This document shows positions 3,401 to 8,462 of a DNA stretch of 64,000 nucleotides, one piece after another. The position numbers are program-made. Location of the stretch: positions 35,340,001 through 35,404,000 of the forward strand of contig NC_043004.1 in NCBI RefSeq assembly GCF_006345805.1. The letters run 5' to 3'. How positions within the stretch are numbered: position 1 is the first letter of the stretch; each line of letters starts with the position of its first letter. The stretch comes from Octopus sinensis. Taxonomy: Eukaryota.

Positions 3401-5976
3401 ATTTTCGATGACCTAAAATTTTATTCATGTTAACATCTAATGGTGTCTCAATTCATGAAAAGTTATTAAACAGAATAAATTTGGTCTAGTCAAGAGACAG
3501 ACGGGAAGATATTACAAGACTAACTCAGTATAAAAAAGGAAAATTAAAAGTAATAGTTTGACCATTTAATGTGCTGTTTCAATCAGAAGCATCTAAAGGA
3601 ATATACATTATTCCTTGAGCATTTAGGAAGCATTTCATGGAAGACTTTAGAATATATTTAATGCTATCTCTTCTGTGTTTTTAGGACAAATATTAAGGTT
3701 TTAAAATTTTGTAAATCTAATATTAAAACTGAATGAAGTAGCGAACTCTTTAGAAAATATAAGATGAAACATCATTCTTTCTTTTTTCCCTTTTCCCTTC
3801 TCATTAACTTTTTATTCTTTGAAAATTTTTGAAATTCCAAATTTGAAAGCTGTTTTAATAGTTTGACTTTTTTTCACATCATACGCTTGAATTTAATGCT
3901 ACATTTTTGTATATTCTGAAGTGTTGCTATGGAAACCGAAAGGGATGACGGTATTCTAAGTGACTTCTTACAAGGCATTTATAAAATGAGATTAATATCT
4001 CTCAAACGATTGATGTAAAGATTTTTAGAATCCAACCATGCATCCATTTGCTTTATTTCCTATCTTCAAAGTTATTTGATTCTTTGAGATGTATAACATG
4101 GAAAATAGATTGCAAGTAACCAAGTGACACATAACTCAAGTTTAGCATCTCCTGTGCAGCTACTGCCACTGGCAAACACACCCATATCATGGTAAAGCTT
4201 GTAACTATACTAGAATGAAACTATATTTTAAATCAATTGCATGCTTCTTTGGTTTTTTTTCCTTGTTTTTGTTTTTTTTTTAACAAGAGATACACGTGCA
4301 TGAAAGTCCAAGGCAAACGGAAAGAGTTTGGTCAGAAATTCATTTTGATATGTGATATCCAGATTATGAAAATCCACTGACATCTTTCAAAAGCATGGAG
4401 AGTGCTTGTTATTGTGCAGTGGAATGGAAAAACAAAGAGTATATTTAGGATAGAGTAAGGCTGTTTGAAAAGGCACAACATCGAATTAAACAGGAAATGT
4501 TCAGTAGAAACTTATACACATACATCATATATGTGTGAACATATATATATATATATATATTATATAAAAGGGTTTAGTAAAATAAATTACTTTGCCGCAT
4601 ACTGAACTCGTTAGAAATAGCAGCTAAAAAAAACTATTTCTAACACTTAAAGAAAACCTCTATTTCTAACGAGTTCAGTATGCGGCAAAGTAATTTATTT
4701 TACTAAGCCCTTTTATATAATGTAATAATTTGAATTTGCCTTAAATGGTCCCTTTGCATACTGAATACTTGGTGAAATTGATTAATTAATTAATTAATTT
4801 TACCCTCAATTGTTGAAATTATAATTCATCTCTCTCTACTTAATTGTCTTGGATTTTACCGAAAAAAAGCGTAGTGTTTGCTGATTTTAACCCACGCTGG
4901 TGGAAAGGGGAGAACAGAAATTTTTCTCTTGCATATTTGAGTTAGCTAGCACTGTTAGTTGGGAACAGATCTTCAGAAGCGATAACAAGCCGAAATGGTA
5001 TGCTCCCATTTTCAGTGTTTTCAAACTCAAACAAGGGCATTCTGAGCTGATGAGAGAAGGGTCGAATTTGGCTAATCTTGAACGTACGTACTCAAATAAC
5101 CTTGCATTTGATTTTTTAATGTCTCTACCCTCATACTTTCTTGGGTTGAATTGAGCAAGCACTATATGAGAGAGGTTTTCTTTAAGTGTTAGAAATAGTT
5201 TTTTTAGCTGCTATTTCTAACGAGTTCAGTATGCGGCAAAGTAATTTATTTTACTAAGCCCTTTTATATAATGTAATAATTTGAATTTGCCTTAAATGGT
5301 CCTTTGCATACTGAATACTTGGTGAAATTGATTAATTAATTAATTAATTTTACCCTCAATTGTTGAAATTATAATTCATCTCTCTCTACTTAATTGTCTT
5401 GGATTTTACCGAAAAAAAGCGTAGTGTTGCTGATTTTAACCCACGCTGGTGGAAAGGGGAGAACAGAAATTTTTCTCTTGCATATTTGAGTTAGCTAGCA
5501 CTGTTAGTTGGAACAGATCTTCAGAAGCGATAACAAGCCGAAAGGGTATGCTCCCATTTTCAGTGTTTTCAAACTCAAACAAGGGCATTCTGAGCTGATG
5601 AGAGAAGGGTCGAATTTGGCTAATCTTGAAACGTACGTACTCAAATAACCTTTGCATTTGATTTTTTAATGTCTCTACCCTCATACTTTCTTGGGTGAAT
5701 TGAGCAAGCACTATATGAGAGAGGTTTTCTTTAAGTGTTAGAAATAGTTTTTTTAGCTGCTATTTCTAACGAGTTCAGTATGCGGCAAAGTAATTTATTT
5801 TACTAAGCCCTTTTATATAATGTAATAATTTGAATTTGCCTTAAATGGTCCCTTTGCATACTGAATACTTGGTGAAATTGATTAATTAATTAATTAATTT
5901 TACCCTCAATTGTTGAAATTATATATATATATATGTATGTATGTATGTATGTATTTATGTATGTATGTATATATGC

Positions 5977-6026
<50 letters not shown>

Positions 6027-8424
6027 TGGCAGGGCTGGCCTGCTAGGTAGCCGGCCAGAATGCTAGAAATAGATCATCAACGATCAAACTACAAGGGAAA
6101 TTCTCTAGAGGAAGAATTCAGCGAACACCAGAACCAAATTTGGCGGGCAGGACATATGAAAACTTAAATAAAAAACAGACTTAAATGCATACCTCGGTTT
6201 CGGTCTTAACAAAAGAATTACTTGCATAATTCAAGTGTCCGTGACTTCTTCAGTACATTCGGTCCTCGAGATGCAAACCGCAAGACTAACCCCAGCTCTC
6301 TGTGTCAAGACAGACACGTGCTTAGTCTTACTGATTACATCGGGAATAAAATTTCAAATGTCTTGGTTCCGGCGCGCTAAGAGACTCCTGAAGCGAAGGG
6401 CTGCAGTGAATAATTCACTGCGGGTAAAGCTTACTACTAGGGAACGTATTTATTTAAATATTTAAAAATTGAGGGAGATAAATTAATATTAATTTTAATA
6501 TCAATTTAAAACCAGTAGTCCAGCATTCAAAAAATCTGAGGAGTCAGAGAAAATTCAAATATATGTGTATATTGGCAGGGCTGGCCTGCTAGGTAGCCGG
6601 CCAGAATGCTAGAAATAGATCATCAACGATCAAACTACAAGGGAAATTCTCTAGAGGAAGAATTCAGCGAACACCAGAACCAAATTTGGCGGGCAGGACA
6701 TATGAAAAATTAAATAAAAAACAGACTTAAATGCATACCTCGGTTTCGGTCTTAACAAAAGAATTACTTGCATAATTCAAGTGTCCGTGACTTCTTCAGT
6801 ACATTCGGTCCTCGAGATGCAAACTGAAAGACTAACCCCAGCTCTCTGTGTCAAGACAGACACGTGCTTAGTCTTACTGATTACATCGGGAATAAAATTT
6901 CAAATGTCTTGGTTCCGGCGCGCTAAGAGACTCCTGAAGCGAAGGGCTGCAGTGAATAATTCACTGCGGGTAAAGCTTACTACTAGGGAACGTATTTATT
7001 TAAATATTTAAAAATTGAGGGAGATAAATTAATATTAATTTTAATATCAATTTAAAACCAGTAGTCCAGCATTCAAAAAATCTGAGGAGTCAGAGAAAAT
7101 TCAAATATATGTGTATATTTGGTTCTGGTGTTCGCTGAATTCTTCCTCTAGAGAATTTCCCTTGTAGTTTGATCGTTGATGATCTATTTCTAGCATTCTG
7201 GCCGGCTACCTAGCAGGCCAGCCCTGCCAATATACACATATATTTGAATTTTCTCTGACTCCTCAGATTTTTTGAATGCTGGACTACTGGTTTTAAATTG
7301 ATATTAAAATTAATATTAATTTATCTCCCTCAATTTTTAAATATTTAAATAAATACGTTCCCTAGTAGTAAGCTTTACCCGCAGTGAATTATTCACTGCA
7401 GCCCTTCGCTTCAGGAGTCTCTTAGCGCGCCGGAACCAAGACATTTGAAATTTTATTCCCGATGTAATCAGTAAGACTAAGCACGTGTCTGTCTTGACAC
7501 AGAGAGCTGGGGTTAGTCTTGCGGTTTGCATCTCGAGGACCGAATGTACTGAAGAAGTCACGGACACTTGAATTATGCAAGTAATTCTTTTGTTAAGACC
7601 GAAACCGAGGTATGCATTTAAGTCTGTTTTTTATTTAATTTTTCATATGTCCTGCCCGCCAAATTTGGTTCTGGTGTTCGCTGAATTCTTCCTCTAGAGA
7701 ATTTCCCTTGTAGTTTGATCGTTGATGATCTATTTCTAGCATTCTGGCCGGCTACCTAGCAGGCCAGCCCTGCCAATATACACATATATTTGAATTTTCT
7801 CTGACTCCTCAGATTTTTTGAATGCTGGACTACTGGTTTTAAATTGATATTAAAATTAATATTAATTTATCTCCCTCAATTTTTAAATATTTAAATAAAT
7901 ACGTTCCCTAGTAGTAAGCTTTACCCGCAGTGAATTATTCACTGCAGCCCTTCGCTTCAGGAGTCTCTTAGCGCGCCGGAACCAAGACATTTGAAATTTT
8001 ATTCCCGATGTAATCAGTAAGACTAAGCACGTGTCTGTCTTGACACAGAGAGCTGGGGTTAGTCTTGCGGTTTGCATCTCGAGGACCGAATGTACTGAAG
8101 AAGTCACGGACACTTGAATTATGCAAGTAATTCTTTTGTTAAGACCGAAACCGAGGTATGCATTTAAGTCTGTTTTTTATTTAATTTTTCATATGTCCTG
8201 CCCGCCAAATTTGGTTCTGGTGTTCGCTGAATTCTTCCTCTAGAGAATTTCCCTTGTAGTTTGATCGTTGATGATCTATTTCTAGCATTCTGGCCGGCTA
8301 CCTAGCAGGCCAGCCCTGCCAATATACACATATATTTGAATTTTCTCTGACTCCTCAGATTTTTTGAATGCTGGACTACTGGTTTTAAATTGATATTAAA
8401 ATTAATATTAATTTATCTCCCTCA

Positions 8425-8462
<38 letters not shown>

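What the first reader, a model, noticed from the sequence alone, without database searches (positions are those of the whole stretch)
4561..8431. Two adjacent, young tandem arrays of about 550-nt hammerhead monomers: a candidate cephalopod retrozyme / circular RNA system
Seen: two arrays with largely unrelated sequence (H1 period 549-551, H2 period 546) lie about 95 bp apart. Each has exactly one type I hammerhead per monomer, a GUA site, near-identical copies, no credible ORF, an inverted arm and (TA)n flanks. Established: tandem type I hammerhead repeats define metazoan non-LTR retrozymes and Penelope pLTRs, whose multimeric transcripts self-cleave to monomers that can circularise. Those monomers are usually reported as a few hundred nt, shorter than here. 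Inference: the arrays are cDNA copies of a circular RNA read around more than once. Predicted monomers are 5091-5639 (549 nt) and 7613-8158 (546 nt).
Basis: partly seen in the sequence, partly recalled or inferred. Interest (0 to 1): 0.92.

Follow-up and report, generated by a model that had tools for sequence, protein, structure and literature searches.

The report
Octopus hammerhead tandem retroelements in microsatellite
Two related non-coding repeat elements, each carrying a hammerhead-ribozyme motif, have been copied via RNA into one (TA)n microsatellite of an octopus genome; they belong to a known class of mobile elements, and their ends show how the copying started.

Summary
The arrays are real and lie at the stated coordinates. 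H1 is 2.3 head-to-tail units of 549-551 nt plus a 106-nt inverted arm. H2 is 2.4 units of 546 nt plus a 1.1-kb inverted arm of 2.0 units. Both sit in one compound (TA)n microsatellite. Five of the six ribozyme positions carry a complete type I hammerhead core with three helices and a GUA site. My descriptor hits nowhere else in the window and gives 0.04 hits per shuffled window. No Rfam hammerhead model detects the motifs, the base pair closing helix II is non-canonical, and one H1 copy has lost a core A.

H1 and H2 are not unrelated. They are collinear distant relatives when phased on the cleavage site. Both direct arrays end at a homologous CCCTCAATT site just after a conserved AU-rich hairpin. 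Both inverted arms end about 96 nt upstream of it. None of the four ends lies at the ribozyme site.

This is the tandem/inverted, microsatellite-targeted insertion signature of Penelope-like elements. No RT or endonuclease ORF is present. Best reading: non-autonomous Penelope-derived elements of the non-LTR retrozyme class in an Octopus genome. A circular RNA template is possible but not shown; an uncleaved linear multimer fits equally. New member of a known kind.

The parts
4541..4560 (.). (TA)n left flank of H1, the target microsatellite
4556..4661 (-). H1 inverted arm. It is the reverse complement of unit positions ~187 to 81. Its outer end lies in a TA-rich stretch. It joins the direct array with 2 nt (CT) of overlap.
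   Evidence: (I6-I8)
4660..5923 (+). H1 direct head-to-tail array, 2.3 units (unit 549-551 nt, GC 34%). It ends at ...CCCTCAATTGTTGAAATTATA next to (TA)n.
5047..5090 (+). H1 hammerhead, copy a. It is defective: the core GAAA reads GAA because of a 1-nt deletion in a homopolymer.
   Evidence: not found; unit position 539
5591..5643 (+). H1 hammerhead, copy b. Helix I is 5591-5594 paired with 5640-5643. CUGAUGA is 5595-5601. Helix II is 5602-5627 (26 nt, closed by a G.U pair). GAAA is 5628-5631. Helix III is CGUACG at 5632-5637. U5638 and A5639 follow, with the predicted cut after 5639.
5277..5373 (+). H1 module between the two insertion-end sites (unit positions ~187-283). It holds the blocks ATTTGAATTT and CCCTCAATT, and a 15-bp AU-rich hairpin at 5321-5354.
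5920..6026 (.). (TA)n/(TATG)n spacer between H1 and H2, part of the target microsatellite
6013..7119 (-). H2 inverted array, 2.03 units of 546 nt. The outer end is at unit position ~165-177, ambiguous because the region is TA-rich. It joins the direct array with 3 nt (ATT) of overlap.
   Evidence: (I1)
6183..6260 (-). H2 hammerhead on the minus strand (core 6253 down to 6190)
6729..6806 (-). H2 hammerhead on the minus strand (core 6799 down to 6736)
7117..8431 (+). H2 direct head-to-tail array, 2.44 units of 546 nt (GC 39%). It ends at ...CCCTCAATTTTTA next to (TA)n.
7542..7619 (+). H2 hammerhead. Helix I is 7542-7548 paired with 7613-7619 (7 bp). CUGAAGA is 7549-7555. Helix II is 7556-7600 (45 nt, with an A.C opposition at its base). 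GAAA is 7601-7604. Helix III is CCGAGG at 7605-7610. U7611 and A7612 follow, with the predicted cut after 7612.
8088..8165 (+). H2 hammerhead, second plus-strand copy (core 8095-8158)
7789..7885 (+). H2 module between the two insertion-end sites (unit positions ~177-273). It holds the blocks ATTTGAATTT and CCCTCAATT, and a 13-bp AU-rich hairpin at 7840-7869.
8430..8516 (.). (TA)n/(TG)n right flank of H2, the target microsatellite

Best explanation
H1 and H2 are two distantly related families of non-coding, hammerhead-bearing retroelements in an Octopus genome. They are non-autonomous derivatives of Penelope-like elements (PLEs), which places them in the 'non-LTR retrozyme' class.

Each was inserted independently into the same compound (TA)n microsatellite by PLE-type target-primed reverse transcription. 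My proposed sequence of events is:
1. The PLE endonuclease cuts the AT-rich target.
2. One target strand primes cDNA synthesis just downstream of a conserved AU-rich hairpin plus CCCUCAAUU module. This gives the right end, at unit position 273 (H2) or 283 (H1).
3. cDNA synthesis runs around or along a template that is continuous across the ribozyme site for more than 2 units.
4. The inverted left arm is a second cDNA whose outer end lies about 96 nt upstream, at position ~177 (H2) or ~187 (H1).
5. The two cDNAs are joined head to head through 2-3 nt of microhomology.

The hammerhead has a helix III of 2-3 bp with a 2-nt loop. It should therefore cut only when two copies pair, so multimeric transcripts would be cut to 546-551-nt monomers, which a host ligase could circularise.

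Shown by the sequence: array anatomy, ribozyme motif, homologous ends, microsatellite target, absence of an ORF.
Inferred: RNA cleavage, circles, the identity of the mobilising PLE, and priming from both target strands.
I lean slightly (about 50%) towards a circular monomer as template rather than an uncleaved linear multimer.
For: - Anatomy and near-identity of the copies.
- Hammerhead motif: the core and three helices are present at 5 of 6 positions and nowhere else in 128 kb of strand sequence. Shuffled windows give 0.04 sites each.
- Covariation: the cores are identical in H1 and H2, but all three helices have different, still complementary sequences. Helix I is UGAG/CUCA against GAAUGUA/UGCAUUU. 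Helix III is CG..CG against CC..GG. The base of helix II is AGA/UCU against GUC/GAC.
- Dimer fold: the minimum-energy fold of the H2 dimer is the double hammerhead with an intermolecular helix III (-35.8 against 2 x -14.5 kcal/mol). The H1 double hammerhead scores -25.2, against -26.6 for the best dimer fold and -15.0 for two monomers. H1 helix III, ACGUACGU, is a perfect palindrome.
- Collinear homology of H1 and H2 when phased on the cut site: alignment z = 5.2. There are 10 shared 8-mers within 25 nt of the diagonal, against a control mean of 0.9 and maximum of 7; 0 of 400 controls reach 10. The rotation test peaks at offset 0.
- Ends: CCCTCAATT lies at unit position 263 (H1) and 261 (H2). 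Both right ends fall 4-12 nt after it, and both left outer ends fall at aligned TA-rich positions.
- Hairpin: a conserved AU-rich hairpin lies just before CCCUCAAUU (z = -4.1 and -3.7 against dinucleotide shuffles).
- Target: (TA)n runs of 6 or more repeats cover only 2.0% of the window, yet all outer ends abut one.
- No RT or GIY-YIG domain appears in any of the 107 stop-to-stop frames of 85 aa or more in the window, nor in the array frames.
- GC is 34% and 39%.
- The monomers fold as circles more stably than shuffles (z = -5.4 and -3.8) and more stably than their antisense strands.
- Literature. PLE insertions are partial tandems, often with an inverted 5'-truncated copy and a microsatellite bias (PMC8557442). 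PLE hammerheads have a long helix II, a short helix I and a small palindromic helix III, and work as dimers (PMC4209133). A PLE protein cleaves and extends both strands of AT-rich DNA and starts reverse transcription internally at a stem-loop downstream of the hammerhead (PMC11167929). Retrozymes are reported to derive from PLE pLTRs, with units of 51-972 bp. O. vulgaris has 30 recently active Penelope families (PMC13282606).
Against: - No Rfam hammerhead model matches, even at E<=10 on stretches of about 100 nt.
- The pair closing helix II (10.1-11.1) is G.U in H1 and A.C in H2 instead of G-C.
- Helix II is far longer (26 and 45 nt) than in published descriptors. Craig et al. used core spacers of 7-17 nt.
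- One of the two H1 hammerheads lacks a core A.
- PLE-type hammerheads cleave poorly in vitro. The PAc hammerhead was dispensable for insertion, and no RNA-seq reads ended at its cut site.
- No autonomous PLE and no other copy of H1 or H2 is in the window, so mobility and copy number are untested.
- The 'two start sites' rest on only two insertions. All four ends lie in TA-rich sequence, where simple microhomology with a (TA)n primer would also place them.
- The two sites are about 96 nt apart, not the 30-40 nt of the published PLE 'tail'.
- The circular-fold controls used mononucleotide shuffles only.
Confidence: 0.75

Rival explanations
1. Same class of element, but no circular RNA is involved. 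The template is an uncleaved, linear multimeric transcript of a donor array. The PLE reverse transcriptase starts internally on it, and the hammerhead is vestigial or works only with protein help.
For: - In vitro, unprocessed RNA was the dominant substrate of the PLE PAc. Hammerhead mutants did not affect insertion, the ribozyme needed protein to cleave, and no RNA-seq reads ended at the cut site (PMC11167929).
- Neither end of either insertion lies at the cleavage site.
- The ribozyme site is crossed intact several times in every arm.
- The hammerheads are non-canonical and are not seen by Rfam.
Against: - Tandem type I hammerhead repeats of a coral, a mussel and the axolotl accumulate as circular RNAs (PMC7229834, abstract and passages).
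- Both H2 arms exceed two units. This needs either a long donor transcript or a circle.
- The hammerhead core is kept, with compensatory helix changes, across two diverged families. That argues for selection on cleavage.
Confidence: 0.35
2. The units are not an independent non-autonomous family. They are ORF-less remnants, or pLTR-only tandem insertions, of a full-length autonomous Penelope-like element present elsewhere in the genome.
For: - PLE insertions are heavily 5'-truncated and form partial tandems (PMC8557442).
- Retrozyme consensus sequences match PLE termini in Xenopus.
- Penelope families are recently active in O. vulgaris.
Against: - Consecutive hammerheads are 546-551 nt apart, with no trace of RT or EN coding sequence.
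- Two diverged families share the same ORF-less unit architecture and length. This is easier to explain if the short unit itself is what propagates.
Confidence: 0.15
3. The arrays are ordinary satellite-like tandem duplications made at the DNA level by slippage or unequal exchange near a microsatellite. The hammerhead-like motif is a chance match.
For: - The arrays lie in a microsatellite-rich region.
- No Rfam hammerhead hit.
Against: - The motif is expected 0.04 times per shuffled window, yet it occurs in both families at the same phase.
- Both arrays have inverted arms, sharp ends at homologous positions and microhomology joints. DNA slippage does not predict these.
Confidence: 0.04
4. Assembly artefact: collapsed or chimeric long reads created the tandem and palindromic arrangement.
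For: - Seven of the 8 differences among H1 copies are homopolymer indels, an error type typical of long reads.
- PLE structures are known to cause assembly problems (PMC8557442).
Against: - The H2 arms are not a zero-spacer palindrome. The joint links unit position 163 to position 51.
- The copies carry private substitutions.
- Two different families show the same architecture side by side.
Confidence: 0.05

Closest known systems
Metazoan non-LTR retrozymes (Cervera & de la Pena 2020, PMC7229834; review PMC7761336)
   Same: Head-to-tail non-coding repeats with one type I hammerhead per unit, GC below 45-50%, and no LTR, PBS or PPT. The predicted monomers fold into stable, highly paired circles.
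   Different: - The unit is 546-551 nt, against about 170-400 nt in that paper. It is within the 51-972 bp reported in the 2026 preprint.
- The hammerhead is not the canonical form with 6-bp helix I and 4-bp helix II and loop-loop contacts. It is a Penelope-type form with a long helix II.
- No expression data exist here.
- The review says these repeats show no conserved motif that points to their mobilising element. Here a shared hairpin/CCCTCAATT end module is visible.
Penelope-like elements and their pLTR hammerheads (Cervera & de la Pena 2014, PMC4209133; Craig et al. 2021, PMC8557442)
   Same: Partial tandems with an adjacent inverted 5'-truncated copy and a microsatellite/(TA)n insertion bias. 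The hammerhead has a short helix I, an enlarged helix II and a small palindromic helix III, and is expected to act as a dimer.
   Different: - No RT/GIY-YIG ORF lies between the repeats or anywhere in the window.
- Helix II spans 26 and 45 nt, against 6-8 bp.
- The base of helix II has a G.U pair or an A.C opposition, rather than one unpaired nucleotide at the 5' side.
PAc (Poseidon, Anolis carolinensis) in vitro retrotransposition (Frangieh et al. 2024, PMC11167929)
   Same: The target is AT-rich. Both target strands are cleaved and extended. Reverse transcription starts internally at defined sites near a stem-loop downstream of the hammerhead, not at the RNA 3' end or the ribozyme cut. The template is multimeric.
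   Different: - In PAc the start sites lie about 85-92 nt after the cut site (111-118 nt into the ORF, with the cut 26 nt into it), in an AC-rich stem-loop, and the two sites are 30-40 nt apart.
- Here the ends lie about 273-283 and 177-187 nt after the cut, next to an AU-rich hairpin, and about 96 nt apart.
- PAc start sites share no homology with the target. Here all ends are TA-rich like the target.
Newt and axolotl satellite hammerheads (dimeric type I hammerheads)
   Same: A very weak helix III capped by a short palindromic loop, so efficient cleavage needs two copies. A non-Watson-Crick pair at the base of helix II is known in axolotl HHR_Amex2, which has a U.U pair (PMC7229834).
   Different: Those units are 330-350 nt and their hammerheads keep the conserved loop-loop contacts. 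The sequences are unrelated to H1/H2.
L1 twin priming (5' inversions). Recalled from memory, not checked in a call.
   Same: An inverted 5' segment is joined to a direct 3' segment through a few nucleotides of microhomology. The usual explanation is that the second target strand primes a second cDNA.
   Different: In L1 the two segments are contiguous on one RNA. Here the joint positions are 51 against 163/177 in H2 and 121 against 81/187 in H1. They are not contiguous even modulo the unit length.

Membership tests
Hammerhead ribozyme, type I | Conserved core C3-U4-G5-A6-N7-G8-A9 ... G12-A13-A14 ... A15.1-U16.1, and H17 at the cut site | tested here: met
   The complete core is present at 5 of 6 unit positions. 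H1 copy a has GAA instead of GAAA. The triplet is GUA in both families.
Hammerhead ribozyme, type I | Three helices around the core, with helix I open and helices II and III closed | tested here: met
   Helix I is 4 bp (H1) or 7 bp (H2). Helix II is closed. Helix III is 2-3 bp with a 2-nt loop. The helices differ in sequence but stay complementary between H1 and H2. Pair 10.1-11.1 is G.U (H1) or A.C (H2), not G-C.
Hammerhead ribozyme, type I | Match to a curated Rfam hammerhead covariance model | tested here: not met
   No hammerhead family at gathering score in the whole window. None at E<=10 in 4300-8700, 5570-5665 or 7525-7640.
Hammerhead ribozyme, type I | Site-specific self-cleavage | not testable with these tools
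   This needs in vitro transcription of monomer and dimer constructs. The only computed support is a double-hammerhead dimer fold.
Metazoan non-LTR retrozyme | Head-to-tail tandem repeats with one type I hammerhead per unit | tested here: met
Metazoan non-LTR retrozyme | No protein-coding capacity and low GC | tested here: met
   The longest frames are 87-107 aa with no relevant Pfam family. GC is 34.2% and 38.8%. LTR, PBS and PPT were not searched for with a dedicated tool.
Metazoan non-LTR retrozyme | Unit size in the reported range | tested here: inconclusive
   The units of 546-551 nt lie outside the ~170-400 nt of PMC7229834 but inside the 51-972 bp of the 2026 preprint.
Metazoan non-LTR retrozyme | Expressed as linear and circular monomer RNA | not testable with these tools
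   No transcriptome data were available.
Metazoan non-LTR retrozyme | Dispersed multicopy family in the genome | not testable with these tools
   No eukaryotic genome collection was available. Within the window there is no other copy.
Penelope-like element (autonomous) | Single ORF with a telomerase-like RT and a GIY-YIG endonuclease | tested here: not met
   None of the 107 stop-to-stop frames of 85 aa or more in the window matches an RT or GIY-YIG Pfam family at E<=0.01. Shorter or badly decayed fragments were not scanned.
Penelope-like element (insertion signature) | Partial tandem copies with an adjacent inverted 5'-truncated copy | tested here: met
   Both H1 and H2 show it. The feature is as described in PMC8557442.
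Penelope-like element (insertion signature) | Insertion into AT-rich or microsatellite DNA | tested here: met
   All outer ends abut (TA)n, which covers 2.0% of the window.
Penelope-like element (insertion signature) | A 30-40-bp 'tail' between two alternative reverse-transcription start sites | tested here: inconclusive
   Two alternative end sites exist in both families, but they are about 96 nt apart, and n = 2.

The most novel reading that the evidence does not exclude
The two insertions may be natural records of PLE reverse transcription primed from both target strands on a ribozyme-bearing RNA.

Both families share two discrete cDNA start sites about 96 nt apart. These bracket the best-conserved part of the unit: ATTTGAATTT, an AU-rich hairpin and CCCUCAAUU. 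This module would then be the cis-acting recognition and initiation signal of a (TA)n-specific Penelope-like enzyme.

If so, it would be the first sequence motif that ties an animal retrozyme to its mobilising element. It would also extend the internal-initiation mechanism, so far seen only in vitro for one lizard PLE, to a mollusc and to non-autonomous elements. With a circular template it would be rolling-circle reverse transcription started at a fixed point on the circle.
Probability: 0.3. Interest if true: 0.6.

Novelty: new member of a known kind. Interest (0 to 1): 0.4.

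Why it matters
Animal retrozymes and Penelope-like elements are poorly understood mechanistically. How the tandem/inverted copies arise, what the hammerhead is for, and which enzyme moves the non-coding arrays all remain open questions (PMC8557442 and PMC11167929).

This locus gives two young, nearly undamaged insertions of related families side by side, with all four ends and both inversion joints readable to the nucleotide. 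That makes the start-site module, the (TA)n targeting and the dimer-dependent ribozyme directly testable in an animal with recently active Penelope families.

I found no paper on hammerhead repeats or retrozymes in cephalopods in the searchable library. Supplementary tables of the surveys could not be seen.

The 1.1-kb near-perfect inverted repeat would also form long double-stranded RNA if transcribed through, which could feed small-RNA pathways.

The element class itself is already known, so this is a useful example rather than a surprise.

Tried and rejected
- Rfam at gathering score on the whole window, and at E<=10 on three nested stretches, gave no hammerhead or other ribozyme family. 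The sub-threshold miRNA-family hits (mir-297, mir-649, mir-944 and others, 16-56 bits against gathering scores of 75-100) fall on (TA)n/(TG)n repeats and on the H1 palindrome. I treat them as artefacts of simple hairpins.
- TRF cannot see periods above 500, so it did not report the arrays.
- Pfam on 107 frames gave only six weak single hits: HTH_IclR, HTH_11, DUF3719, NOA36, HTH_24 and HTH_Tnp_Tc3_2. None is an RT or endonuclease. I did not trace which frames gave them.
- Pfam on 5 array frames gave only Med15_fungi and YLR146W-A, both below cut-off, which I regard as noise.
- Rolling translation. The periods 546 and 549 are multiples of three, which could allow endless translation of a circle. 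I rejected this because no frame of either unit is stop-free (the longest are 97 and 107 aa).
- Alternative register for H2 helix II. I tested a register with one unpaired nucleotide after A9, as described for PLE hammerheads. I rejected it because it pairs worse than the A.C register (reading).
- Alternative H1 core using the first GAA (5613-5615). I rejected it because U would occupy position 15.1.
- Simple L1-type twin priming on one RNA. I rejected it because the joints are not contiguous modulo the unit length.
- nhmmer and BLAST with one unit do not find the other family. Homology appears only in the global alignment, k-mer diagonal and rotation tests.
- The literature search was badly framed: all 15 listed papers lacked 'retrozyme'. 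It says nothing, and I replaced it.
- Not done:
  - Genome-wide copy number, other insertion sites, and a search for an ORF-bearing PLE with the same termini.
  - Supplements are closed and I did not ask for them. The supplementary files of PMC4209133, PMC7229834 and PMC8557442 may list cephalopod hammerheads or Octopus PLE consensus sequences that bear on the novelty claim.
- Lunse et al. 2017 on dimeric PLE hammerheads and the L1 twin-priming literature are recalled from memory only; I did not see them in any call.

Full report
**Observation**

The window has no N and about 35% GC.
- H1 has a direct array at 4660-5923. It consists of a partial unit 4660-5090, a full unit 5091-5639 (549 nt) and a partial unit 5640-5923, with spacings of 548-551 nt.
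- H1 is preceded by an inverted arm at 4556-4661. The arm is 97% identical to the reverse complement of unit positions 81-185, which creates the 65-nt-arm palindrome 4556-4724.
- H2 is a head-to-head pair of arrays: 2.03 units on the minus strand (about 6013/6027-7119) and 2.44 units on the plus strand (7117 to about 8431). Its period is exactly 546.
- The blocks are separated by about 90-104 bp of (TA)n/(TATG)n and flanked by (TA)n at 4541-4560 and 8430-8516.
- Neither family has another copy in the 64 kb.
- H1 copies differ at 8 sites, of which 7 are single-base indels in homopolymer runs. H2 copies differ by 3 substitutions and no indel.

**Hammerhead**

Read from the sequence:
- H1 copy b is UGAG-CUGAUGA-(26 nt)-GAAA-CGUACG-UA|CUCA.
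- H2 is GAAUGUA-CUGAAGA-(45 nt)-GAAA-CCGAGG-UA|UGCAUUU.

This is the order of a type I hammerhead, with the full conserved core and a GUA site.

A relaxed descriptor of my own required helix I of at least 4 bp, at least 3 of 4 pairs at the base of helix II, a helix II span of 8-50 nt, and a helix III of 1-4 bp with a 2-8-nt loop. It finds five sites on both strands of the window, all in the arrays. In 150 dinucleotide shuffles of the window the mean is 0.04 sites per shuffle, and 6 of 150 shuffles have one site. The descriptor was written after I had seen the motifs, so the figure is optimistic. Even so, two independent occurrences at the same phase of two diverged units are very unlikely by chance.

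The cores are identical in the two families, while all three helices have different but complementary sequences. This is the pattern expected of a conserved RNA structure.

Helix III is only 2-3 bp with a 2-nt loop. In H1 the stretch ACGUACGU is a perfect palindrome. In H2, ACCGAGGU can pair with a second copy around a tandem G.A. The minimum-energy fold of two H2 copies is the double hammerhead (-35.8 against 2 x -14.5 kcal/mol). The H1 double hammerhead scores -25.2, within 1.4 kcal/mol of the best dimer fold (-26.6) and well below two monomers (-15.0).

Evidence against the hammerhead reading:
- No Rfam hammerhead model matches at gathering score.
- None matches at E<=10 on 4.4 kb, 96 nt or 116 nt.
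- The pair closing helix II is G.U (H1) or A.C (H2) rather than G-C.
- Helix II is unusually long.
- H1 copy a has lost one A of GAAA.

The features match the hammerheads described in Penelope-like elements: a larger helix II, a shorter helix I with no defined loop 1, a small palindromic helix III, dimer dependence and low activity in vitro (PMC4209133, passages). A non-Watson-Crick pair at the base of helix II is also reported for one axolotl retrozyme hammerhead (PMC7229834, passage).

**Relationship of H1 and H2**

BLAST and nhmmer do not connect the two families. When both units start at the predicted cut site, three tests do connect them:
- A global alignment scores 5.2 sd above 200 shuffles.
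- Ten shared 8-mers lie within 25 nt of the diagonal. Controls were 400 random window segments, with mean 0.9 and maximum 7; 0 of 400 reach 10.
- The alignment score peaks at rotation 0 (154.5) and falls to 52-85 at distant rotations.

The shared blocks are TGCATTT, CTATTTCTA, ATTTGAATTT, AAATTGAT..TTAAT and CCCTCAATT. The last lies at unit position 263 in H1 and 261 in H2. The two families are therefore collinear distant relatives, not unrelated sequences.

**Ends and joints**

- Right ends. H1 runs to ...CCCTCAATTGTTGAAATTATA and then into (TA)n, at unit position about 283. H2 runs to ...CCCTCAATTTTTA and then into (TA)n, at position 273.
- Left ends. The outer ends of the two inverted arms lie at position about 187 (H1) and about 165-177 (H2). 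These are aligned TA-rich positions some 10 nt before the shared ATTTGAATTT block.
- Joints. Inverted and direct parts are joined through 2 nt (CT; position 81 to 121) in H1 and 3 nt (ATT; position 163 to 51) in H2, with no target sequence between them.
- None of these points is the ribozyme cut site. The cut site is crossed intact in every arm.
- Hairpin. Just before CCCUCAAUU both units form an AU-rich hairpin. In H1 it is 5321-5354 (15 bp, -13.4 kcal/mol, z = -4.1). In H2 it is 7840-7869 (13 bp, -10.6 kcal/mol, z = -3.7). The inner stem differs between the families but stays complementary. AT-rich palindromes do this easily, so I give it limited weight.
- Target. (TA)n runs of six or more repeats cover 2.0% of the window (57 runs, 1300 nt). 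Ends that all abut (TA)n therefore indicate a target preference.

**Context**

None of the 107 stop-to-stop frames of 85 aa or more in the window matches an RT or GIY-YIG family. The array frames match nothing relevant. Unit GC is 34.2% and 38.8%. As circles, the units fold more stably than 60 mononucleotide shuffles (z = -5.4 and -3.8) and than their antisense strands.

A frame from a dispersed repeat at 55667-56149 has 10 database relatives. Eight are named 'Hypothetical predicted protein [Octopus vulgaris]', one is from O. bimaculoides and one is unnamed.

**Mechanism**

The one biochemical study used PAc from Anolis (PMC11167929, main text read in full). It shows:
- cleavage and extension of both strands of AT-rich DNA;
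- reverse transcription starting at two internal sites in a stem-loop downstream of the hammerhead;
- a multimeric transcript as the template;
- a hammerhead that is protein-assisted and dispensable for insertion.

The locus here reads as the genomic footprint of that process acting on an ORF-less unit. One cDNA starts after the hairpin/CCCUCAAUU module and runs for 2.3-2.4 units. An oppositely oriented cDNA has its outer end about 96 nt upstream and runs for 0.2 units (H1) or 2.0 units (H2). The two are joined by microhomology.

Two alternatives remain open.
- A snap-back or template switch of the first cDNA could also make the inverted arm.
- Simple annealing of a (TA)n primer to UA-rich RNA could place all four ends.

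With only two insertions I cannot separate these.

The template was continuous over the cut site for more than two units. It was therefore either a religated circle (rolling-circle reverse transcription, as proposed for retrozymes; PMC7761336, passage) or an uncleaved multimer. The sequence does not decide between them. I lean slightly towards the circle for two reasons. Both H2 arms exceed two units, and the ribozyme has been kept with compensatory changes across two diverged families.

**Comparison and novelty**

By the published definition these are non-LTR retrozymes: tandem, non-coding, low-GC repeats with a type I hammerhead (PMC7229834, abstract and passages). A 2026 preprint argues that such elements are non-autonomous derivatives of PLE pLTRs and reports units of 51-972 bp (abstract and Results part 1). 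The 550-nt length is therefore not exceptional.

O. vulgaris has 30 recently active Penelope families with 329 insertions (PMC13282606, passage), so plausible partners exist.

I found no paper on hammerhead repeats or retrozymes in cephalopods:
- 'hammerhead ribozyme' / octopus / Penelope: only Craig et al. holds all three terms, and its octopus mention concerns Naiads.
- retrozyme + octopus: 3 papers hold both terms, none on topic among the 2 listed.
- 'hammerhead ribozyme' + cephalopod: 4 papers, none on topic among the 2 listed.

Supplementary tables were not visible.

**Verdict**

This is a new member of a known kind. The most useful extra result is the pair of homologous end sites and the conserved module between them.

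**Limits**

Copy number, other insertion sites, the mobilising element, RNA expression, cleavage and circularity are all untested. An assembly artefact cannot be excluded without reads, although the non-palindromic joint and the private substitutions argue against one.

Noticed in passing
window 8517-9300; also 429-586, 2971-3285, 27166-28182, 43297-43922, 49795-49951, 55646-56066: The DNA right of H2 consists of dispersed SINE-like repeats, with 72-85% identical copies across the window. Frames through them match proteins annotated as 'Hypothetical predicted protein [Octopus vulgaris]'. Those gene models are therefore probably repeat-derived.
   Followed up: partly
window 304-586 and 8430-8680: The same repeat fragment (84% identity) directly follows a microsatellite in both places: (ATAG)n at 304-425 and (TA)n at 8430-8516. 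The (TA)n that received H1 and H2 may therefore itself belong to a SINE-associated microsatellite.
   Followed up: no
window 4660-5923: Seven of the 8 differences among H1 copies are 1-nt indels in homopolymer runs, one of which breaks a hammerhead core. The neighbouring H2 has no indel in 2.4 kb. This is either long-read assembly error confined to H1 or reverse-transcriptase slippage. It remains unexplained.
   Followed up: partly
window 4556-4724 and 6013-8335: The H1 palindrome gives sub-threshold miRNA-family matches: mir-649 at 37 bits and mir-944 at 36.5 bits, both against a gathering score of 100. The H2 arms are a 1107-nt inverted repeat reported as 100% complementary. If transcribed through, both would form hairpin or long double-stranded RNA.
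   Followed up: no
window 5091-5639 and 7613-8158: Both unit lengths (549 and 546 nt) are multiples of three, which would allow endless translation of a circle. Every frame has stops, however; the longest open frames are 107 and 97 aa.
   Followed up: yes
window 37420-37850: A low-complexity stretch of about 430 nt is open in five of the six reading frames. Its translations are runs of I/T/F or M/V/K.
   Followed up: no
window 6826-6830 compared with 6280-6284 and the plus-strand copies: One unit of the H2 inverted arm carries two substitutions 2 nt apart (unit positions 455 and 457) that are absent from all other H2 units. This shows that the two arms are not exact mirror copies.
   Followed up: partly
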